Sequence record: NC_070903.1
Length of the DNA: 33,349 nucleotides
Source of the DNA: Escherichia phage P2_AC1
Strand: one strand, 5' to 3'
The notes below the pieces were generated by a model that was not told where the DNA came from, made no database searches, and saw only the letters and a program-made list of their open reading frames with translations. The position numbers and the translations under genes are program-made. Below are positions 1 to 8,684 of the stretch, one piece after another. The stretch's first letter is position 1. Every line of letters begins with the position of its first letter.

Positions 1-104
1 CGCCCGCTTCGTGGGGCGGTTTTAATGCAGTTGCATGAACACTCCAAGAGCGCGCCAGCACTGACGATAACTGACAATAAAAACGGCTTCTGACATATGC
101 ACAT

Positions 105-1022
105 TCATTCACAATCATGCATATTAAAGAACGGGTATGGATAGCGTCGTAAGATCTCATCTTCACTGTACCCCAAATAATCAGACATGAGTTTAATCGA
201 AGGTGGCGTTACAGGTTTCATAAGTAGAGGAAAACGTTCGTGCAAATCATTGAATTTAAGAATCCCTGAATCTTCTTGCATTACTCTTTTGTCAAACAGC
301 GATTCAGCATACAATGGCAACTCTTTGAGCAACAGATTAATATCAAGCAACAAAACATCTATCATAATCATTATTTGCTCAGTAATATCAATGTAATAAG
401 CTGCCTTATTACTACCTATAGCATTAACAATATCATCATTTTTAAAACGCATCGTAGGCAAAGGTGAACCTGTTGATTCAATAATCATTCCTCTATAGGT
501 GTCATCAAAATCATTCCTAACATTTAATGCAGCCAATAGGCTGTTAAACCTTCTTGCTATATCACTAACAGCAAAAGCATCCCCCCAGTTAGTAGTCTTT
601 GCTGTTTCTCTATTATTCCCTACTCCCTTTTGACTCAATATACAGGCCAACTCACTTAAATCTGATGATAGAGGAGCACCAGAAAAAACCACAACAGGAA
701 AAGCTAAAGCCCTCTCGATAGGATTTTCACTTATACTTACCCCACCATAATAATTCCCTTTAATTTGCAACAACGTTGTCATTGCAGAAAAGTAGTCATA
801 AATACATTTATTTACAACGCTTACCTTTCTTCTTTGTGCTTTAAGGTACTCCTGCCGATAAAACAACCTAGTTGCAATAAAGTAACTCAGCACAGAAGAT
901 ATAATTGGTAATACTACAGGCAGCACATAATCTTTTATGACATTAGTATTATTAACGCCTTTAATTGCATCAATAATATCCTCAACCTGAAGCTGTCCTA
1001 TTATATAGCTCGTATAATCCAT
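105..1022 (-). CDS. hypothetical cargo protein, N-terminal transmembrane anchor; no family recognised
   Basis: 305-aa ORF; ATG at 1020-1022 lies 2 nt after the stop of the upstream small ORF (tgaTAatg), suggesting coupling; hydrophobic helix at about res 33-55 (LPVVLPIISSVLSYFIATRLFY); strongly AT-rich DNA unlike backbone; last gene before the genome end. Confidence 0.6.
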   Translation of the reverse strand: MDYTSYIIGQLQVEDIIDAIKGVNNTNVIKDYVLPVVLPIISSVLSYFIATRLFYRQEYLKAQRRKVSVVNKCIYDYFSAMTTLLQIKGNYYGGVSISENPIERALAFPVVVFSGAPLSSDLSELACILSQKGVGNNRETAKTTNWGDAFAVSDIARRFNSLLAALNVRNDFDDTYRGMIIESTGSPLPTMRFKNDDIVNAIGSNKAAYYIDITEQIMIMIDVLLLDINLLLKELPLYAESLFDKRVMQEDSGILKFNDLHERFPLLMKPVTPPSIKLMSDYLGYSEDEILRRYPYPFFNMHDCE

Positions 1023-1024
1023 TA

Positions 1025-1213
1025 TCAGAAAGCCGTTATTGTTCTATTACAACGTTCAGTAGCAACTTTCACAGCATCACGCCCATCACTTAATTTAGGG
1101 TAAGAACCAATCTCTATAAAATATTGGACACCTCTTTCAATACAACCCTCAACTTCTTTTTTATTACTCTCATTACAACCAGCCAGCAACGCCCCCAAAA
1201 AGCCATAACACAA
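1025..1213 (-). CDS. small ORF (62 codons) with non-ATG (TTG) start, lipobox-like LLAGC near N-terminus; possibly coupled to downstream 305-aa gene
   Basis: Start codon read directly as TTG (rc of caa at 1211-1213); AAGGAG lies upstream but is better spaced for a TTG in another frame, so frame and start are uncertain. Confidence 0.3.
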   Translation of the reverse strand: MCYGFLGALLAGCNESNKKEVEGCIERGVQYFIEIGSYPKLSDGRDAVKVATERCNRTITAF

Positions 1214-1702
1214 ATCAGTTTTCTTTTCAATCCAAACTCCTTAACAAACACAATACAAAAACATATAAATATATTATTTTTCAAACTAAGTAAATCCCAG
1301 CGATTCATAAACCCTCTGTGTCAATCTGATGGGCATCTAACGCCTCGCTGTGCTTGTTGTTCAACGCTGCCATTCCAGAACGACTGGAGAGATTCCCTAT
1401 CGTCTATGTGATGCTGCAACTCAGGATTGACCGATATTATTAAACCACTCCATAAATACCTCTAACAATTCTCCCCGACCAACTCACTCAGCGTCATTTT
1501 TTCGTTGCCCATCATCTGCTGTAGACGAAGAACATTTCATGGAACGATTTTAATACTGATGCGTTCATAGTTGAATTCAGCACAATAGCCGTAAGCAGGC
1601 ATAATCTTCTAACATTAATAATACATGTGCATTCATATAACATCGACAATTTTAATGATTTTATCAAAATAAAAAATAACATACCCATTATAAACGATAT
1701 AC

Positions 1703-1725
1703 AGCCGCTGAAAAATAGCGGCTGC
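1703..1725 (-). terminator. candidate intrinsic terminator downstream of the TIR gene
   Basis: Inverted repeat cagccgc / gcggctg with 9-nt loop, about 50 nt past the TIR-gene stop; U-tract on the minus strand is interrupted (tatatcgttta), so weak. Confidence 0.35.
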
Positions 1726-1775
1726 GGCATTATAAGTTTATATATGCAAAATTATTTATGATTAGTCAAAATTGA

Positions 1776-2723
1776 TTATTCCATTTCATCCCGTTCTGCA
1801 TCCTCCTCATCCATCATGTCAATTAAATTTCTGGTCCGCAATCTAAGCGCACTATTGAACATATTGTTTGATGAAACCCCACAATAATTATCTAAGTGAG
1901 CGATTACTCTAGAACAATCCATTATCATTTTATTTAATGATTCAATTAACTCGCTCCTAGATGTTTCATCAATACCACGGCGAATAAATCTTCTTTTTAC
2001 ACGAATTAGTGAATGATGCATGGATAATAAATCAGAAGCTACAATTTTTAAAACAGTTTCTTTACGCCCTTCCCTGTTTATTATTTTGCTAACATATTCT
2101 TCTGGCAATAATGATGCTGGATCACGCAATAATTGGTGATTTGTTCGGCTAATATCCAGCAAACTTTCAACAATTTTGGAAAGATTTTGTATCTCAGAAG
2201 TCGAATCACCTTTTGTTTTTTTAGTGGAATCTTTATCTACAGGGTTAATATCTTGAATGTTATCTAACTCACGCTCTAAACTTGGCCACCATTGCTCGAA
2301 AGCTTTAGTTAAGCGTTCTTCAGTCAAAAATCCTGCTTGATTATTTATTGACAACATCAACTTCAAAATATCGTTCTTATCATCCGAACGAGTATACTGG
2401 AATTGTAATATTGGGCCTGTTATCTCAGATGGTTTAATTTTAAACAAGAAAGGACTAACCCGGCTCTTATCAACCTTTTTACCTAAAGCACCCGCCTCAA
2501 AATTTATCCACGGTGCATTAATATTATTTTTTGTAAGGCAAATAATCCCATAAGAAGAGTCATCAAGTTCCTTTGATATATCAGTCGCCCAGCGAGTGCC
2601 TTTATCAATATCTTCCGCTGATACGTACGGCTCAGCTACTTGAATAACATTCGGTATCCAATCCCGTAATACTTTTGCTATCTCCAGGCTGTCCTGACCT
2701 GACCAACTAATAAATATCTTCAT
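1776..2723 (-). CDS. TIR-domain protein (N-terminal TIR, about res 1-125) with C-terminal helical domain of unknown function; candidate NAD+-consuming defence effector/sensor
   Basis: 315-aa ORF, ATG 2721-2723 with AAGGT about 9 nt upstream; N-terminus MKIFISWSGQD matches the TIR beta-A motif (F-I-S-x-S-x-x-D, same spacing as FISYSEHD of Toll-like receptors); W72-x3-E76 (APWINFEAG) matches the TIR W-x-x-x-E spacing; AT-rich. Confidence 0.75.
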   Translation of the reverse strand: MKIFISWSGQDSLEIAKVLRDWIPNVIQVAEPYVSAEDIDKGTRWATDISKELDDSSYGIICLTKNNINAPWINFEAGALGKKVDKSRVSPFLFKIKPSEITGPILQFQYTRSDDKNDILKLMLSINNQAGFLTEERLTKAFEQWWPSLERELDNIQDINPVDKDSTKKTKGDSTSEIQNLSKIVESLLDISRTNHQLLRDPASLLPEEYVSKIINREGRKETVLKIVASDLLSMHHSLIRVKRRFIRRGIDETSRSELIESLNKMIMDCSRVIAHLDNYCGVSSNNMFNSALRLRTRNLIDMMDEEDAERDEME

Positions 2724-2934
2724 AATACCATACCTTGATTAAAAAAGATCCATATCTATGACGTCAATACCTGAGCACGCGGGGAAGTTATGCCTTATGG
2801 CAGAATGATTTCTTATTAAGCCCGTGTTTTTGCTACATGTAGCGATAGCTGGCAGTGAAAACACCCATTTCCACATGCAAAACAATGCATCTGATACATG
2901 CGGATTTACAATGTCAGCTAATCAAAAGTCATGT

Positions 2935-2964
2935 AAAAAAATCACCCCCTAAGGGGTGATTTTT
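2935..2964 (-). terminator. rho-independent terminator (bidirectional hairpin) ending the A-proximal cargo operon
   Basis: Perfect 8-bp stem atcacccc / ggggtgat with 4-nt loop (2941-2960), A6 on one side and T4 on the other; on the minus strand it directly follows the stop of the 185-aa gene and is followed by 6 U. Confidence 0.65.
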
Positions 2965-3520
2965 ATGCGTATACAACCTTTTCAACCTGAGTATCAGGAA
3001 GCAGCATTATAGCTTCCTCTAAATCTCTTCCTTTGACCCACTGTACTAAACTACTTGCTGTCTTTATGACCCTAACACAGAACCATACAGCAAGGACAAA
3101 TGGAAACATGTAAAGCAATAACATTAAGCTATTGAATAACAGTACATTTTCAAGTATCCGACCGGATTTAAACAGTACATCAACAACTTCTCTATCATCA
3201 CAGCGTTTGAAAACATCTATCTCACGCCGAATTTTCTGCCTTATTGCATGGTTTTCTGCCATACGCTTTTGAGCACGAAATTTGTTTGGCAACGTGAGTA
3301 AATGCAATCTATTGATAGCGTTATTCAATGAGTCATGCACAAGTGTTGCCGCTTGCATGGAAGTATCGGAACCTCCATCAATGATTTTCCTCCTAGCGAC
3401 ATCACGAAGCGCAAACAATTGGTTTCTATAATGAAGTCGGATGGACGGCAAAATGATTCGCTCGTAAATGAAGTGTGCTGCGCCTAAACCCAACAGCACA
3501 TAAAACAGCACTGTCAGCAT
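2963..3520 (-). CDS. hypothetical membrane protein (two predicted TM helices flanking a ~110-aa soluble region)
   Basis: 185-aa ORF with strong RBS (AGGAG 6 nt before ATG at 3518-3520); TM1 res 2-19, TM2 about res 129-150; starts 20 nt after the stop of the upstream 126-aa gene (operon); followed by the terminator. Confidence 0.7.
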   Translation of the reverse strand: MLTVLFYVLLGLGAAHFIYERIILPSIRLHYRNQLFALRDVARRKIIDGGSDTSMQAATLVHDSLNNAINRLHLLTLPNKFRAQKRMAENHAIRQKIRREIDVFKRCDDREVVDVLFKSGRILENVLLFNSLMLLLYMFPFVLAVWFCVRVIKTASSLVQWVKGRDLEEAIMLLPDTQVEKVVYA

Positions 3521-3540
3521 AATAACTCCTAAATAAACAA

Positions 3541-3921
3541 CTATTTATCACTTGTACCCAAGGCTTGAGTGGTCTGTCTTTGTTGATACTTTGTTTTCTC
3601 GTTACCGATTCTCTGTGCCTCGGAACTAAAACAGCGCCTCATGATTCGCGCATGTGCAGACCAAGCCAAACCCACTATTACCGAGATAGCCCAACCAACC
3701 AAGGAATGCTCCTTAAAGCCATCAACAATAGAGAAGGCTAAATTGGACAAGTCAGTTTTTGGTAACCTCCATGCAGCAATCATTAAAATAATACTGATGG
3801 TAATAGGTATCAACTGACCATTAGACATGGCTCTTATCATTACATCCCGCCACGCCTGAGCCCACGTAACCTTAACCTGATTTTTGTTGCCTTTGCCTTT
3901 GCCTTTGCCTTGCTTCCCCAT
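3541..3921 (-). CDS. hypothetical small 2-TM membrane protein with Gly/Lys-rich N-terminus
   Basis: 126-aa ORF, ATG at 3919-3921; two hydrophobic helices (about res 36-52 and 73-89); first gene after a ~330-bp non-coding gap downstream of A; the N-terminal (GK)n is encoded by a hexamer repeat, so the true start could be internal. Confidence 0.6.
   Translation of the reverse strand: MGKQGKGKGKGNKNQVKVTWAQAWRDVMIRAMSNGQLIPITISIILMIAAWRLPKTDLSNLAFSIVDGFKEHSLVGWAISVIVGLAWSAHARIMRRCFSSEAQRIGNEKTKYQQRQTTQALGTSDK
3886..3913. repeat. in-frame hexanucleotide tandem repeat (ctttgc x3 plus partial copies) encoding the GKGKGKG tract
   Basis: Direct reading of ttgcctttgcctttgcctttgccttgc at the 5' end of the 126-aa ORF. 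Confidence 0.5.
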
Positions 3922-4250
3922 TTTACCCAGCCGCCGGTTACTTTTGAGGGCGCAAATAGTACAACTCGCTATCGTATTCAGTCAAAAAAGCTTTTCAGAT
4001 TTTTGACAAAAGCCAGCTTAATCCTTGATTACTTCTCCTTCTCAATACAAGGTGTATAGCAAAGAGCGCCCATCAATCAAGCAAAATCTCCTTCCTTTGG
4101 CTTCATTTATCACCAAAACACAACATATAGAGTACATCTTCCCATTAAATAACTATACGAGAGTGCAACGAGGAAACATTCTAATCATAGAACAAGATCT
4201 TTAGATGCTTAACGCTGCCCCCTGTAAATAATTTTCGCAACTGGCGACGT

Positions 4251-6572
4251 TCACTCCATTACTGCTGAGAATCCCCGCCACTCATCAGCGACCGGATACG
4301 TGAATTTTTTCCCGTCGTAATTTACAATTGCTCCACGCGCCAGCGCCTCAAGCTCCCATCGCTGCGGCCTGATACCGTTCTGAGCAAGGTCAACGCGGAT
4401 ACGGGTAATTTGCATTCGTTCTGACCGGGTCAGTCTGGCCGATGGTGCCATTTCATGCTGTTTTAACGGGCTTCCGTTTCTTTGCTGACGGTTTGGTCTT
4501 CTCAGACCTTGTTTTAATGCGCCCCTGAGCGCCCTCACGACCTCCGGGTCATTCCATTCAATAACACCGTCATCAACCAGATTAAGCACTGCTGCGGCGT
4601 GCTCAGAAGGTGTGGGAGCCGGTAACGAAGTATCACCACCGGTGAGCTTTCCACAGTTATTGACAGGACTCCGAGGCGCGGCGATGCCGCTTTTTAAAGT
4701 CAAAGGCTCAACGACCGGCACTTTCGGCACAATGCGCCAGTCCGTCGTTCTGGTGATATGAATATGACGCGCGCCGAGATGCGGCGCGTAAATGCCGACC
4801 ACTCTCTCGACTTCTTCCTCGTACTCGTTAACGTCATCCGACGGGCTACGGGCAACCCTGACAGTCTGACAATCGCGCGGGACATTTGCCCCACCCTGCG
4901 CGCTGATATACAACGCAAAATCACCACTGTCTGCAGCAGCGCGAGCAGCCTCGACGCGTTCGTCAAACTCATCAGCAATACTGACGCCGCGAGGCAATTT
5001 GCGTAGTTCACGGTAAGCCCCCATTGTCGGCAGGCCAACCGTTTTAAATTGCGGGATGCGCCACGTTGACGCCCATGCGGTAACAGCCGCCGCTGTGTCT
5101 TTCAGCGGTCTGCCGGTATCGTTATCGAGCTGACCATCCAGTGCATAGCCGTCGATGTTTTTTGAAATGTATTTCGCGATATATCCCGCAGCACCGCCCC
5201 GGTTAAGGTGTTTTGCCTGAAAACGGTTTCGCGCGGCTCCTCTTTCGTCGCCATCCTCTTTGAGCGCATAGCGACGCATGATTTCGATAATCTGGTTGCG
5301 CTGGCGTGGATTACAAAAAAGCATCATATGCCAGTGCGGCGTTCCGTCGTGGTGTGGCTCGACGACACGCAAACCGTAGACCTGTAAATCATTATCCTTG
5401 AATGCCGTGCGCATCAGGCTCCAGATACGGCAGAGATAACGCTGCGCATCCTTTGGATTAAATGCCTCATCGTTCCAGCCGTGATTAAGCTGAACGGTTT
5501 TACTTTCGCCTTTTCCGACCTGACGTGTCGGGTGATACTTTGACGGCGCGGTCAGCGTGATAAACATCCCCACATCACCCTCTGCGGCGGCGTAACGCTC
5601 AATACCGGCAATGGTGTTCATCAGCTCCATCCGGCGAATTTCTGGATTAGAAATACTGCCCATCACCTTACTGATAAGGTCGATGCGCTCGCCAGTTTCC
5701 CTGTTTTCAAGGTCACACGATTTAAGAAATTCCAGATTTGCCTGGCGGCGCGCACGCACATCACGAATGGCATGTTTACTGGCATAAGGAGAACGGTCTT
5801 TATTGACCTCCCCGACAGCAATCAGTAACGCCTCATGCCAGCGCATACGCTGGCCTTTAAGCTGATGAGTCCACCACTCATCGTTAAACAGGCGGGTAAT
5901 GGCAGAATATGCCTGCCTCGTGGTCATCTGCCCTTTACGGTATTTTTTCCAGTAGAGAGGGGAAATATTGAAAGCTCGTGCAGCGCCAGCAACATGACCA
6001 TACAGGTGAGCCTGCGCCTCATCCGTAAACAGCGATTCTTTCTCGCCATGCGCATCCACCCAGGCATCGCTGAGTTCCTCATACATCATGAAAAGCTGCG
6101 ATGAGATACGGGCGGCAAATTTTTTCAGCTCCTTGTCATTCATCCCCGGCAGGCGCGCATAGTGGTCACGCTCTGCCAGAAACAGCAACGACGCGTTGGT
6201 GTTCATTTCATGGCGCTGATTAACGCGCTCAATGCGCGGCCATAAACGACGCTGAAAAGTGGATGTGAGGAAATAAAACCCGTGCACCGGGCTTTTATTG
6301 CGCCGGATGTAGTCATAGCGTGAAGTAAACAGCGAGCGCAAAAAGTAAGGCAGGCGGTTAATCGTGGATAAAACACCTTGCACCTGACGCATCTCGTCAC
6401 GTGTAAGGGGTCTTTCGCGCCCGACAGCCTCGCGTGGCGCGTTCCATGCATAAGCACCGGTAAACGCCTTACCGGTGCCTGCGGCAAATGCTGACGGAGG
6501 GACAAAACGCCCGGAGGCTTTAACGGCCATGTGAGCCAAAAGCCTCTGAACAACGCTTGCTGAGTTGCTCAA
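4251..6572 (-). CDS. A: replication initiation endonuclease gpA (rolling-circle initiator)
   Basis: 773-aa ORF; sequence (MAVKASGRFVPPSAF..., HHDGTPHWHMMLF, YIAKYISKNIDGY) matches P2 gpA as remembered; true start probably the internal Met at about 6530 (~759 aa). Confidence 0.95.
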   Translation of the reverse strand: MSNSASVVQRLLAHMAVKASGRFVPPSAFAAGTGKAFTGAYAWNAPREAVGRERPLTRDEMRQVQGVLSTINRLPYFLRSLFTSRYDYIRRNKSPVHGFYFLTSTFQRRLWPRIERVNQRHEMNTNASLLFLAERDHYARLPGMNDKELKKFAARISSQLFMMYEELSDAWVDAHGEKESLFTDEAQAHLYGHVAGAARAFNISPLYWKKYRKGQMTTRQAYSAITRLFNDEWWTHQLKGQRMRWHEALLIAVGEVNKDRSPYASKHAIRDVRARRQANLEFLKSCDLENRETGERIDLISKVMGSISNPEIRRMELMNTIAGIERYAAAEGDVGMFITLTAPSKYHPTRQVGKGESKTVQLNHGWNDEAFNPKDAQRYLCRIWSLMRTAFKDNDLQVYGLRVVEPHHDGTPHWHMMLFCNPRQRNQIIEIMRRYALKEDGDERGAARNRFQAKHLNRGGAAGYIAKYISKNIDGYALDGQLDNDTGRPLKDTAAAVTAWASTWRIPQFKTVGLPTMGAYRELRKLPRGVSIADEFDERVEAARAAADSGDFALYISAQGGANVPRDCQTVRVARSPSDDVNEYEEEVERVVGIYAPHLGARHIHITRTTDWRIVPKVPVVEPLTLKSGIAAPRSPVNNCGKLTGGDTSLPAPTPSEHAAAVLNLVDDGVIEWNDPEVVRALRGALKQGLRRPNRQQRNGSPLKQHEMAPSARLTRSERMQITRIRVDLAQNGIRPQRWELEALARGAIVNYDGKKFTYPVADEWRGFSAVME

Positions 6573-7321: not shown

Positions 7322-7575
7322 AGTACCTCCCCGCGAGACAATCCGATATTGTGAAATTTTTCCGACTCCTGACTGAGCAGCTCGACTATCTCCACGCGGG
7401 ATAACTCCGCCTTTGTGATGTGGCGAATCATGGCGTCAAGATGAGAAGAAAAGCGCGTCGCCGCGTCGGCCTGTGCTTCGGTTCTGGCCTGTTGCAGCAG
7501 TAATGCGTATTTACCGCACTGATTTTCAGAAACTGTATGCATGACTTTCTCCAAGCAAAAAAAAGCCCCGCACAA
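7318..7575 (-). CDS. P2 orf80-like early-region protein, function unknown
   Basis: 85-aa ORF; true start may be the internal Met (MHTVSENQ...). Confidence 0.6.
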
Positions 7576-7605
7576 TTAAGTGCGTTAAAAACTCTGGTTA
7601 ATTAC

Positions 7606-8106
7606 TTAATGCAGATATTGCTCTGGTTTTACCGATGTCAGAATTGTCGGTGCATACTCAAACAGACTGAATAATTCACGTAATGCACGGAATAAAGCAT
7701 CACGCCAGTAACATGATTCTTCATTAATTCGCCAGTATGGCTGGTTGAATTCTTTTTCTGTCAATCTGGCATGCATAAATAAAGTACGCCGCTGACTGAC
7801 TGTTAAAAAACTAATATATGCATACTCACTTGCACCGACCTGACGGCGTTTTGAGAATGCCCCACGCAATTCATCAATTGCACAAACCAGCCGTTCACGT
7901 TCGACATCGTTCATTTCTTCGAAACGCATCGTTGCGTGACGTTGTTTTAACTGCGCATGGAAGCAAACCGTTAGCCGTTCACGTTCCATCATCTGATTAT
8001 AATAATCACATGTCTCCTGCCAGCGAGGGACGGCCAGATGCTTACCAATTATCCGGCGCATAGCTGCTGGCTGTTTTTCGACGAGATTAAGTGTCATCAC
8101 TGTCAT
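7606..8106 (-). CDS. B: gpB, replication protein (helicase-loader-like)
   Basis: 166-aa ORF MTVMTLNLVEKQPAAMRRIIGKHLAVPRWQ... near-identical to P2 gpB as remembered. Confidence 0.9.
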   Translation of the reverse strand: MTVMTLNLVEKQPAAMRRIIGKHLAVPRWQETCDYYNQMMERERLTVCFHAQLKQRHATMRFEEMNDVERERLVCAIDELRGAFSKRRQVGASEYAYISFLTVSQRRTLFMHARLTEKEFNQPYWRINEESCYWRDALFRALRELFSLFEYAPTILTSVKPEQYLH

Positions 8107-8300
8107 TTCCAGCCCCTCCGGCTTTTCAGAAAGGTCAGAGCCTTTTTTAACGGACTCTGTTTTTTGGTACGGATAATGATTCCCTTGCGTCCCTTCCCGT
8201 GGGTGATGGTGAAGTCAATCGCCCTGGGGCTTTCGTTACGCAGTAACTGAGCAATACAACGCGGCTCATTCATAATCACAACCCCATCCACAAAAGCCAT
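8103..8300 (-). CDS. small early ORF between cox and B (P2 orf78 position)
   Basis: 65-codon ORF overlapping the cox 3' end and the B start; position conserved in P2 but sequence not recognised. Confidence 0.45.
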   Translation of the reverse strand: MAFVDGVVIMNEPRCIAQLLRNESPRAIDFTITHGKGRKGIIIRTKKQSPLKKALTFLKSRRGWK

Positions 8301-8563
8301 GCATCACGCTGTTCAACCGGTCGGTTATAAAACGCATCACGTACAGCGCGATTAAACTCAGGAATGAAAACCCATTTTTCACCGGCACGAGCCTTCGGTT
8401 TGCAAGGATCACGCAATTCAATAATTGGTAATTTATTTGCCTTCACCATTTCACTGACTGCTGTCTTTGGCTTCCCTAATAAATCAGCAAATTTATCCAC
8501 ATGAACCGCATCAAGCGGATACTGAATCACATAATTTTCAGCGTCCATATATGGTACCCTCAT
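8276..8563 (-). CDS. cox: Cox-like excisionase / early-operon transcriptional regulator
   Basis: First gene of the early operon, divergent from C; C-terminal KLPIIELRDP...AGEKWVFIPEFN...RDAWLLWMGL resembles P2 Cox as remembered; N-terminal part differs; true start may be the internal Met. Confidence 0.75.
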   Translation of the reverse strand: MRVPYMDAENYVIQYPLDAVHVDKFADLLGKPKTAVSEMVKANKLPIIELRDPCKPKARAGEKWVFIPEFNRAVRDAFYNRPVEQRDAWLLWMGL

Positions 8564-8684
8564 AGGATCCAGCCCTTTCTAAACCACTCAAAACCGTTTA
8601 GACGCTGGTTTATTCTCAAATCAATGGAACCTATATAGGTTCCAGTTTTGAGGGAATTTAGTCCCTATATAGGCACCATGTCAA
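8564..8684. promoter_or_regulatory. divergent Pe/Pc immunity switch region with two operator-like palindromes
   Basis: 121-bp gap between divergent cox (-) and C (+); CCTATATAGG occurs twice (8630-8639, 8664-8673), the first within an 18-bp perfect palindrome GGAACCTATATAGGTTCC. Confidence 0.6.

What the first reader, a model, noticed from the sequence alone, without database searches (positions are those of the whole stretch)
1776..3921. Membrane-protein plus TIR-domain cargo module in the A-to-cos hotspot (candidate anti-phage defence system)
Where P2 carries old and tin, this phage carries three different genes: a 126-aa 2-TM protein and a 185-aa 2-TM protein in a tight operon (20-nt gap, strong AGGAG RBS, ended by a perfect hairpin terminator at 2935-2964), then a separately transcribed 315-aa protein whose N-terminus shows the TIR motifs (FISWSGQD; W72-x3-E76). 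TIR domains in prokaryotic immunity typically act as NAD+-degrading or signal-generating enzymes, and small membrane proteins could be the membrane-disrupting partner. The architecture resembles membrane-protein plus TIR systems I recall being reported from P2/P4 hotspots (a '2TM-1TM-TIR'-type family), so this may be a known family rather than a new one; the ~190-aa C-terminal domain of the TIR protein has no family I can assign. The terminator between the TM operon and the TIR gene leaves open whether these are one system or two.
Basis: partly seen in the sequence, partly recalled or inferred. Interest (0 to 1): 0.85.

Follow-up and report, generated by a model that had tools for sequence, protein, structure and literature searches.

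The report
Known AC1 TIR defence locus, composite
These three genes are exactly the "2TM + 1TM + TIR" anti-phage locus of P2-like phage AC1, already cloned and shown to protect E. coli, but comparison with about 70 related loci suggests it is two independent gene cassettes lying side by side rather than one three-gene machine.

Summary
The three ORFs (126, 185 and 315 aa, minus strand) match PADLOC models 2TM-TIR, 1TM-TIR and TIR-TM over their full length (E 7e-58, 3e-75, 3e-118). They are 100% identical to the three proteins of plasmid pFD240 from phage AC1 in Rousset et al. 2022. Both cloning primers map exactly, so the tested insert is window 1389-4186. That insert protected E. coli C against lambda, LF82_P8 and P2. 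No single-gene dissection was reported, and the proposed mechanism (TIR signal activates the TM proteins) was only a hypothesis.

New here: the two parts separate. The TM pair is always a pair (34 loci, including Bacteroidota), but 29 of those loci have no TIR gene. 38 TIR loci have no TM pair. P2-like hotspots exist with the TM pair only, with TIR only, or with both. The "both" state is one near-clonal haplotype (14 of 5,426 complete E. coli genomes, all at least 99% identical). Each cassette has its own conserved 5' region and terminator hairpin, and solitary copies are under purifying selection.

The TIR domain keeps the catalytic WxxxE glutamate (E76). It most likely acts as a self-contained NAD+-cleaving protein. 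The function of the TM pair remains unknown.

The parts
3956..3985 (-). Promoter-like site upstream of the TM operon (TTGACT, 18-nt spacer, TACTAT)
   Evidence: Consensus scan, 9/12 match. It lies inside the region that is conserved with TM-pair-only P2-like phages (window 4130-2935). Consensus match only; no evidence of function.
3541..3921 (-). 126-aa membrane protein (PADLOC 2TM-TIR / Rst_2TM_TIR). Basic N- and C-terminal tails, hydrophobic segments at about 38-56 and 74-93. Inferred topology N-in/C-in.
   Evidence: ORF. PADLOC PDLC02978, E 6.9e-58, full length. Identical to AC1 protein 1. Charge distribution. Always directly upstream of the 185-aa homologue.
3887..3911 (-). In-frame hexamer repeat (4.2 copies) that encodes the (GK)n N-terminal tail of the 126-aa protein
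   Evidence: TRF: period 6, 100% matches. Homologues are 124, 126 or 128 aa long.
3526..3530 (-). AGGAG ribosome-binding site of the 185-aa gene, 5 nt before its ATG, within the 20-nt intergenic gap
   Evidence: Read directly from the sequence.
2963..3520 (-). 185-aa membrane protein (PADLOC 1TM-TIR / Rst_1TM_TIR). Two hydrophobic segments flank a basic, all-helical domain of about 105 aa.
   Evidence: PADLOC PDLC02977, E 2.7e-75. Identical to AC1 protein 2. AlphaFold pLDDT 85.8, all helical. The family has 1,036 clusters at 50% identity, with conserved H16 Y19 P25 R28 R32 F36 R39 D40 R43 N66 N130 Y137 P140.
2935..2964 (-). Intrinsic terminator of the TM operon and 3' boundary of the TM cassette
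   Evidence: 12-bp stem, -17.8 kcal/mol, z = -3.5. Homology with the TM-pair-only phage L018 ends at 2935.
2724..2855 (-). 5' region of the TIR cassette, conserved with TIR-only prophages. It contains a -35-like TTGACG at about 2761-2766.
   Evidence: Alignment A3 with L035, L038 and L040. No site passed the promoter scan threshold here, so promoter function is inferred.
1776..2723 (-). 315-aa TIR protein (PADLOC TIR-TM / Rst_TIR_tm). TIR domain at about 1-155 with W72-x3-E76. Conserved helical motif at 178-210. Variable helical hairpin at 217-281.
   Evidence: Pfam TIR_2. PADLOC PDLC03016, E 2.7e-118. Identical to AC1 protein 3. TIR fold matches. E76 aligns with the AbTir and plant TIR catalytic Glu. 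Invariant columns. Model.
1701..1725 (-). Terminator-like hairpin downstream of the TIR gene; 3' boundary of the TIR cassette
   Evidence: Terminator scan. Fold. The hairpin is conserved in TIR-only loci, where cos follows directly.
1025..1308 (-). Frameshifted remnant of a 94-aa ORF (lipobox-like LLAGC). Outside the published tested insert.
   Evidence: 1-bp deletion in a C6 run relative to strain 0-4. PHROG 32041, unknown function.
105..1022 (-). 305-aa ORF with one N-terminal hydrophobic segment. A possible third cassette, outside the published tested insert.
   Evidence: ORF. No Pfam, PADLOC or NCBIfam family. PHROG 21267, unknown function. Hydropathy.

Best explanation
This is the published AC1 '2TM + 1TM + TIR' anti-phage locus (DefenseFinder Rst_2TM_1TM_TIR, PADLOC 2TM-1TM-TIR). 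Protection against lambda, LF82_P8 and P2 was shown for this exact DNA (window 1389-4186).

My reading is that it is a composite of two autonomous cassettes stacked in the P2 gpA-cos hotspot.

Cassette 1 (window about 4130-2935) is a two-gene operon with its own terminator. It encodes two small inner-membrane proteins that always occur together and probably form one complex. The 126-aa protein has two TM segments, basic tails on both ends and a holin-like topology. The 185-aa protein has two TM segments flanking a basic helical cytoplasmic domain. This complex acts without any TIR protein. What it does is inferred only: either it blocks superinfecting phage at the membrane, or it permeabilises the membrane as an abortive response.

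Cassette 2 (window about 2855-1700) is a single gene with its own conserved 5' region and terminator. It encodes a TIR enzyme with an intact catalytic glutamate, fused to a conserved helical C-terminal region. Because it is solitary in 38 other loci, it most likely both senses infection (through the helical region) and acts (NAD+ cleavage leading to growth arrest). It is less likely to signal to the neighbouring TM proteins.

Shown: identity with AC1, the TIR fold and catalytic motif, and the separability and boundaries of the cassettes. Published: the defence phenotype of the combined insert. Inferred: NADase activity, the sensing role of the C-terminus, and any function of the TM pair.
For: Identity with the known system:
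- Full-length PADLOC hits for all three proteins.
- The proteins are 100% identical to the pFD240 proteins, and both primers map to the window.
- Published phenotype.

Separability:
- Of 34 loci with the 185-aa homologue, all 31 profile-scanned have the 126-aa homologue directly upstream (the other 3 were read from gene calls only), but only the 5 AC1-type copies have a TIR gene.
- 38 of 40 TIR loci lack the TM pair.
- P2-like hotspots bracketed by gpA and portal hold the TM pair only (L017-L019, L025, L026, L075, L076) or TIR only (L035-L038, L040).
- The three-gene state is one haplotype at 99% identity or more, in 14 of 5,426 E. coli genomes.

Cassette boundaries:
- Homology with the TM-only phage L018 ends at the hairpin (hairpin).
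- The TIR 5' region and 3' hairpin are conserved in TIR-only loci.

Selection on solitary copies: dN/dS is 0.05-0.07 for the TM genes and 0.15-0.28 for TIR.

No other conserved TIR partner: the recurrent neighbours are terminase and HNH genes.

TIR chemistry: TIR_2; fold matches to SPARTA TIR-APAZ, PdTIR, BtTir and AbTir; W72 and E76 align with the WxxxE motif of AbTir and SWCLDE of a plant TIR and are invariant.

Independent cargo: both modules separately occupy cargo slots in lambdoid phages. The TM pair lies between Q and holin or next to the lysis genes. A TIR homologue lies between Q and holin in phage mEp390.
Against: - No experiment separates the cassettes. The published phenotype could need all three genes.
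- Co-location in AC1 is compatible with cooperation that evolved recently.
- Absence of a partner within 4-8 kb does not exclude an unlinked partner, and several loci have truncated flanks.
- The alignments that place E76 on known catalytic residues have weak E-values (0.5-0.9), and NADase activity was not measured.
- The TM pair has no detectable similarity to any characterised protein.
- In Bacteroidota the TM pair sits in ordinary chromosomal contexts, so a non-defence role is possible.
Confidence: 0.65

Rival explanations
1. One integrated three-gene signalling system, as proposed by Rousset et al. On infection the TIR protein converts NAD+ into a nucleotide messenger. The messenger activates the two membrane proteins, which disrupt the membrane (Thoeris-like logic).
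For: - The three genes are adjacent, on the same strand, and were tested together.
- The TIR domain has an intact catalytic motif.
- The 185-aa protein has a conserved arginine stripe (R28, R32, R39, R43) that could bind a phosphate-bearing ligand.
- Both cataloguing tools define it as one system.
Against: - The TIR gene and the TM pair never co-occur outside one near-clonal haplotype: 29 TM-only and 38 TIR-only loci.
- A strong terminator and a separately conserved 5' region divide them.
- Neither TM protein has a known signal-binding domain such as SLOG, Macro, SAVED, CARF or STING.
- Solitary copies are under purifying selection.
Confidence: 0.2
2. Only the TIR cassette is the defence system. 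The TM pair is unrelated cargo, for example a lysis-timing or envelope-related module, and contributes nothing to the published phenotype.
For: - In lambdoid prophages the TM pair sits inside or beside the lysis cassette.
- The 126-aa protein has a holin-like topology.
- In Bacteroidota the pair lies in ordinary chromosomal neighbourhoods, next to PBP1a, glycosyltransferases or a two-component regulator.
- TIR proteins have ample precedent in immunity (established knowledge).
Against: - In P2-like phages the pair is the sole occupant of a hotspot shown to be enriched in defence systems.
- The Q-holin and post-Rz slots are also classic cargo positions.
- The lambdoid phages that carry the pair already have their own recognised holins.
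Confidence: 0.25
3. Only the TM pair is responsible for the published protection, for example by excluding superinfecting DNA at the inner membrane. The TIR protein then targets other phages or is inactive in E. coli C.
For: - The protection includes the close relative P2, which is typical of prophage superinfection exclusion.
- The TM pair is carried as the only hotspot gene set in several P2-like phages.
Against: No similarity to any known exclusion protein. The TIR gene is intact, highly conserved and has a catalytic motif.
Confidence: 0.15

Closest known systems
2TM + 1TM + TIR system of P2-like phage AC1 (Rousset et al. 2022, Cell Host Microbe 30:740, PMC9122126; DefenseFinder Rst_2TM_1TM_TIR; PADLOC 2TM-1TM-TIR)
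   Same: Everything. All three proteins are 100% identical. The gene order, the hotspot and both cloning primers match the window exactly.
   Different: Nothing at the sequence level. The interpretation differs: the catalogue treats it as one three-gene system, whereas the comparative data here indicate two separable cassettes. The hotspot also contains a 305-aa ORF and a frameshifted 94-aa ORF that were not in the tested insert.
Thoeris (ThsB TIR signal generator plus ThsA effector, including type II ThsA with TM helices and a Macro domain)
   Same: A TIR protein with a catalytic glutamate lies next to membrane proteins. This analogy was the basis of the published hypothesis.
   Different: No ThsA-type ligand-binding domain is present. 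The TIR gene and the membrane genes are not evolutionarily linked. The TIR protein also carries its own conserved helical C-terminal region of about 150 aa.
Self-contained TIR NADase effectors (AbTir/BtTir-type bacterial TIR NADases; TIR modules of SPARTA and TIR-NLR/Avs proteins)
   Same: TIR fold and the WxxxE catalytic motif. Single-polypeptide sensor-plus-effector logic is the most economical reading for a gene that occurs alone.
   Different: The partner domain is a short helical region with the motif E186...R193-x-N195...R200-x-P202...P207...Y210. It has no detectable relative. There is no STAND NTPase, Argonaute or APAZ domain.
P2 old / tin (the occupants of the same hotspot in phage P2)
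   Same: Same genomic slot between gene A and cos. Same role as prophage-borne exclusion cargo.
   Different: Unrelated proteins. No old or tin homologue is present in window 1-4250.
Prophage two-component membrane exclusion or abortive systems (lambda RexAB; T4 Imm/Sp; P22 SieA/SieB)
   Same: Small prophage-encoded inner-membrane proteins carried as cargo. This is a functional analogy for the TM pair only.
   Different: No sequence or fold similarity was detected. The analogy is an inference, not a test result.

Membership tests
2TM-1TM-TIR (Rst_2TM_1TM_TIR) | Three proteins that match the family's three profile models | tested here: met
   PADLOC 2TM-TIR E 6.9e-58, 1TM-TIR E 2.7e-75, TIR-TM E 2.7e-118. 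All matches are full length.
2TM-1TM-TIR (Rst_2TM_1TM_TIR) | The three genes are adjacent, co-oriented and in the order 2TM, 1TM, TIR | tested here: met
   3921-3541, 3520-2963 and 2723-1776, all on the minus strand.
2TM-1TM-TIR (Rst_2TM_1TM_TIR) | Identity with the type specimen (phage AC1, plasmid pFD240) | tested here: met
   Exact match of all three protein sequences, of the first 399 nt of the insert, and of both primers.
2TM-1TM-TIR (Rst_2TM_1TM_TIR) | Anti-phage activity | not testable with these tools
   Published for the identical insert against lambda, LF82_P8 and P2 (PMC9122126).
2TM-1TM-TIR (Rst_2TM_1TM_TIR) | The three genes form one conserved functional unit (evolutionary co-occurrence) | tested here: not met
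   Co-occurrence is seen only in one haplotype at 99% identity or more. There are 29 TM-pair loci without TIR and 38 TIR loci without the TM pair. This questions the definition of the system, not the membership of this locus.
TIR-domain NAD+-cleaving enzymes | TIR fold | tested here: met
   Pfam TIR_2, E 7.5e-10, above the gathering score. Foldseek top hits are TIR domains with probability 1.00, e.g. PdTIR with TM-score 0.66-0.70 normalised to the target.
TIR-domain NAD+-cleaving enzymes | Catalytic glutamate in the WxxxE / SxWCxxE motif | tested here: met
   W72 and E76 align with W and E of AbTir (kkdWtnyEl) and AT1G72930 (sWcldEl). Both residues are invariant in 34 homologues. The pairwise E-values are weak (0.5-0.9).
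TIR-domain NAD+-cleaving enzymes | NAD+ hydrolase or cyclase activity | not testable with these tools
   Requires an enzyme assay or an NAD+ measurement after infection.
Thoeris | ThsA-type effector with a signal-binding domain (SLOG or Macro) linked to the TIR gene | tested here: not met
Holins / known superinfection-exclusion proteins (for the TM pair) | Match to a described holin, Sie, Imm or Rex family | tested here: not met
   No Pfam or NCBIfam family. The PHROGs are of unknown function. No viral fold match with E below 0.5.

The most novel reading that the evidence does not exclude
The catalogued three-gene 'Rst_2TM_1TM_TIR' system is really two independent anti-phage systems, each widespread and currently invisible to DefenseFinder and PADLOC because their rules expect all three genes.

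(a) A two-gene inner-membrane module. Its 185-aa component belongs to an unnamed family of more than 1,000 clusters at 50% identity, reaching from Enterobacterales to Bacteroidota.

(b) A single-gene TIR-plus-helical-domain protein, found alone beside terminase or lysis genes in dozens of unrelated prophages.
Probability: 0.4. Interest if true: 0.6.

Novelty: already known. Interest (0 to 1): 0.35.

Why it matters
As a discovery the locus adds nothing, because it is the type example of a published and catalogued defence system. Its value lies in what remains open. The mechanism was never dissected, and the comparative evidence here argues that the catalogue entry merges two units.

If that is right, three things follow:
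- The rules used by annotation tools under-report both units. The three-gene form is found in only 14 of 5,426 complete E. coli genomes, whereas the separate families have hundreds to thousands of members.
- The Thoeris-like signalling model for this system is probably wrong.
- Two compact, easily clonable candidates become available for mechanistic work: a TIR protein of about 300 aa and a two-gene membrane operon of about 1 kb.

Tried and rejected
- Sequence families for the TM proteins: Pfam and NCBIfam gave nothing above noise for the TM proteins or the 305-aa ORF. PHROGs gave only families of unknown function.
- Cultured phages: no DNA match for the locus and no protein match for the 185-aa protein. 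The TIR protein matched only mEp390.
- C-terminal region of the TIR protein: sequence and profile searches of the PDB returned only designed or coiled-coil helical proteins. I treat these as compositional matches.
- A hidden conserved partner for solitary TIR genes: I clustered the neighbouring ORFs. The recurrent ones are terminase subunits and HNH genes, i.e. phage backbone. The Vibrio neighbours (368 and 219 aa) have no significant family.
- Literature: I found no paper after 2022 that dissects this system, only catalogue mentions.
- Solitary copies in complete E. coli genomes: a DNA search found only the 14 AC1-type copies. Solitary E. coli examples exist only in draft assemblies.
- The 305-aa ORF as an independent cassette elsewhere: in IMG/VR it was found only with AC1-type hotspots, so this is unresolved.
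- Promoter of the TIR gene: no site in 2724-2962 passed the scan. The promoter is inferred from conservation only.
Full report
**What is there**

The window is a P2-like (Peduovirus) genome that starts at cos. Its backbone is 95-97% identical to P2, WPhi and relatives.

Between the replication gene A (4251-6572, minus strand) and cos, the minus strand carries three ORFs at 3541-3921 (126 aa), 2963-3520 (185 aa) and 1776-2723 (315 aa). The first two are separated by 20 nt, with AGGAG 5 nt before the second ATG.

A 12-bp hairpin at 2937-2964, followed by U residues, overlaps the stop codon of the 185-aa gene. It folds at -17.8 kcal/mol, and none of 200 shuffles folds as well.

The 315-aa protein matches Pfam TIR_2 (E 7.5e-10, residues 3-113).

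Two details need correction. First, the hotspot also contains a 305-aa ORF (105-1022) and the remains of a 94-aa ORF. The latter is broken by a 1-bp deletion in a C-run relative to E. coli strain 0-4. Second, the published label for the 185-aa protein is "1TM".

**It is a known, tested system**

PADLOC gives full-length hits for all three proteins to the three models of a single named system: 2TM-TIR (6.9e-58), 1TM-TIR (2.7e-75) and TIR-TM (2.7e-118).

That system was defined by Rousset et al. 2022 (PMC9122126) from the P2-like phage AC1. An AC1 lysogen of E. coli C resisted lambda and LF82_P8. The cloned locus reproduced this protection and also protected against P2.

Table S2A of that paper gives the insert of plasmid pFD240. 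The three listed proteins are letter-for-letter identical to the window's ORFs. The first 399 nt of the insert equal window 3788-4186 (reverse strand). The two primers anneal at 4161-4186 and 1389-1413. So the tested DNA is window 1389-4186, and the window is AC1 or indistinguishable from it at this locus.

[quoted passage not shown] It reports no single-gene dissection. I found no later paper that dissects the system, only catalogue mentions.

**One system or two?**

*From the 185-aa protein.* Searches of the protein collection, GTDB genomes and IMG/VR gave 34 loci.
- Profile scans of the six-frame ORFs cover 31 of these loci; in every one the 126-aa homologue lies directly upstream on the same strand. 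This includes four Bacteroidota loci at 25-33% identity. L075-L077 were read from gene calls: L075 has a 121-aa ORF there, while none was called in L076/L077.
- A TIR homologue is present only in the five copies that are essentially identical to the window.
- The other 29 loci lack a TIR gene within the DNA available, up to 8 kb on each side.

*From the TIR protein.* Forty loci were retrieved. Only the two 100%-identical contigs have the TM pair, and 38 do not.

*Inside P2-like phages.* The same gpA-portal hotspot exists in three states:
- TM pair only: L017-L019, L025, L026, the E. coli 186-like L075 and the Serratia L076.
- TIR only: Klebsiella L035-L037, E. coli L038 and L040.
- Both: the AC1 type.

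In complete E. coli genomes the "both" state is a single haplotype. It occurs in 14 of 5,426 genomes, all at 99% identity or more.

*Cassette boundaries.*
- Homology between the window and the TM-only phage L018 runs from about 4130 to 2935, the foot of the hairpin.
- About 125 nt upstream of the TIR ATG (with a TTGACG -35-like box) and the hairpin at 1701-1725 are conserved in the TIR-only prophages. In those, cos follows directly.

*Selection.* Solitary copies are under purifying selection relative to the AC1 copies. dN/dS is 0.045-0.068 for the TM genes and 0.15-0.28 for TIR.

*Neighbours.* The recurrent neighbours of solitary TIR genes are terminase and HNH genes, which are phage backbone rather than a conserved partner.

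*Lambdoid phages.* Both modules also occupy classic cargo slots separately. The TM pair lies between Q and holin, between endolysin and spanin, or after Rz. A TIR homologue lies between Q and the holins of phage mEp390, next to an annotated bidirectional terminator.

Rousset et al. themselves note that many P2 hotspots hold more than one system. I conclude, with about 0.7-0.75 confidence, that the AC1 locus is two autonomous cassettes, plus a possible third (the 94-aa and 305-aa ORFs), rather than one three-gene machine.

**The TIR cassette**

The AlphaFold model (34-sequence alignment, mean pLDDT 73.8) has a confident alpha/beta domain over residues 1 to about 155. This is followed by helices 174-200, 208-249 and 253-281.

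Foldseek places the N-terminal domain among TIR domains: SPARTA TIR-APAZ bound to NAD+, PdTIR, BtTir, AbTir, TcpB and TLRs, all with probability about 1.0.

W72 and E76 align with the Trp and the catalytic Glu of AbTir and of a plant TIR. Both residues, together with about 70 other positions in the first 150 residues, are invariant across homologues from Enterobacterales, Burkholderiales and Vibrio.

A second conserved block covers residues 178-210 (E186, R193, N195, R200, P202, P207, Y210). A short motif with P273 and Y276 lies in an otherwise variable helical region. Neither has a detectable relative.

Because the gene stands alone in 38 loci, the most economical mechanism is a self-contained protein. 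The helical region would sense infection or mediate assembly, and the TIR domain would cleave NAD+, causing growth arrest. This is an inference. Enzyme activity, the trigger and the outcome are all untested.

**The TM cassette**

The 126-aa protein has a Lys/Gly-rich N-terminal tail, two hydrophobic segments and a basic C-terminal tail. The flanks carry 8 and 7 Lys/Arg residues and the loop carries 1. By the positive-inside rule this implies an N-in/C-in topology, which is also typical of small holins.

The 185-aa protein is all helical (pLDDT 85.8). It has an N-terminal hydrophobic helix that continues into a basic domain of about 105 residues, and then a second hydrophobic segment.

An exhaustive profile search shows a large unnamed family: 1,036 clusters at 50% identity, 783 of them with E at or below 1e-10, and all about 170-195 aa long. 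The conserved signature is H16, Y19, P25, R28, R32, F36, R39, D40, R43, N66, N130, Y137 and P140.

No fold or family match suggests a function. The strict pairing and tight spacing of the two genes (overlapping in several loci) suggest a heteromeric membrane complex. Its presence as the only cargo in a defence-enriched hotspot suggests exclusion or abortive infection. However, its position beside lysis genes in lambdoid phages and in ordinary chromosomal contexts in Bacteroidota keeps a non-defence role open.

**Verdict**

The finding is real and correctly interpreted, but it is already known. It is the type specimen of a catalogued, experimentally validated system, so novelty is "already known" and interest is modest.

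The residual interest is that the catalogue entry probably merges two independent units, each far more widespread than the three-gene combination. The published signalling model is therefore unlikely. A two-construct cloning experiment would settle the question.

Noticed in passing
window 105-1022 (-) and 1025-1308 (-): A 305-aa ORF has one N-terminal hydrophobic segment, belongs to PHROG 21267 (unknown function) and has no Pfam or PADLOC hit. Upstream of it lies a 94-aa ORF with a lipobox-like LLAGC. The 94-aa ORF is intact in E. coli strain 0-4 but frameshifted here by a 1-bp deletion in a C6 run near 1192-1197. Both lie in the hotspot but outside the insert tested by Rousset et al. Their Table S5A lists the hotspot as five genes. 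This may be a third, untested cassette.
   Followed up: partly
window 3887-3911 (-): A perfect hexamer repeat (4.2 copies) encodes the (Gly-Lys)n N-terminal tail of the 126-aa protein. Close homologues are 124, 126 or 128 aa long, which is consistent with in-frame repeat slippage.
   Followed up: partly
L003, L004, L027-L034 (about 7500-8580 in the 16.5-kb loci); L005 3613-4579; L021 7598-8579: In lambdoid prophages of Klebsiella, Plesiomonas and others, the TM pair sits between antiterminator Q and holin, between endolysin and spanin, or after Rz. No TIR gene is present. The position next to the lysis genes is unexplained.
   Followed up: partly
L078 (phage mEp390, JQ182729.1) 3001-3819: The cultured lambdoid phage mEp390 carries a 272-aa protein whose first 157 residues or so are 41% identical to the TIR domain. 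It lies between Q and the holins on the opposite strand, next to an annotated bidirectional terminator. It is annotated only as a hypothetical protein.
   Followed up: no
L008 5004-6927 (Vibrio fluvialis): The TIR homologue in Vibrio fluvialis is followed by 368-aa and 219-aa ORFs with no significant Pfam or PADLOC family. It is unclear whether these are partners or unrelated genes.
   Followed up: partly
L010 (JAIJJM010000013.1, labelled MAG: Collinsella sp.): A 15.8-kb contig binned as an actinobacterial Collinsella MAG is 98-99% identical to this E. coli P2-like phage across the hotspot, gene A and the portal side. It is almost certainly a mis-binned enterobacterial prophage contig.
   Followed up: no
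L011-L014 (Bacteroidota): Distant copies of the TM pair (25-33% identity) lie in ordinary chromosomal neighbourhoods. Neighbours include PBP1a, CinA, glycosyltransferases and a PIN protein in L011, and a hybrid two-component regulator and nitronate monooxygenase in L012. There is no evident phage or defence-island context.
   Followed up: partly
window 1-19 (+): The window begins at the P2-type cos region (CGCCCGCTTCGTGGGGCGGTTTTAATGCA). The same sequence follows the TIR terminator directly in the TIR-only prophages. So the 33,349-bp window is a complete linear phage genome cut at cos.
   Followed up: partly
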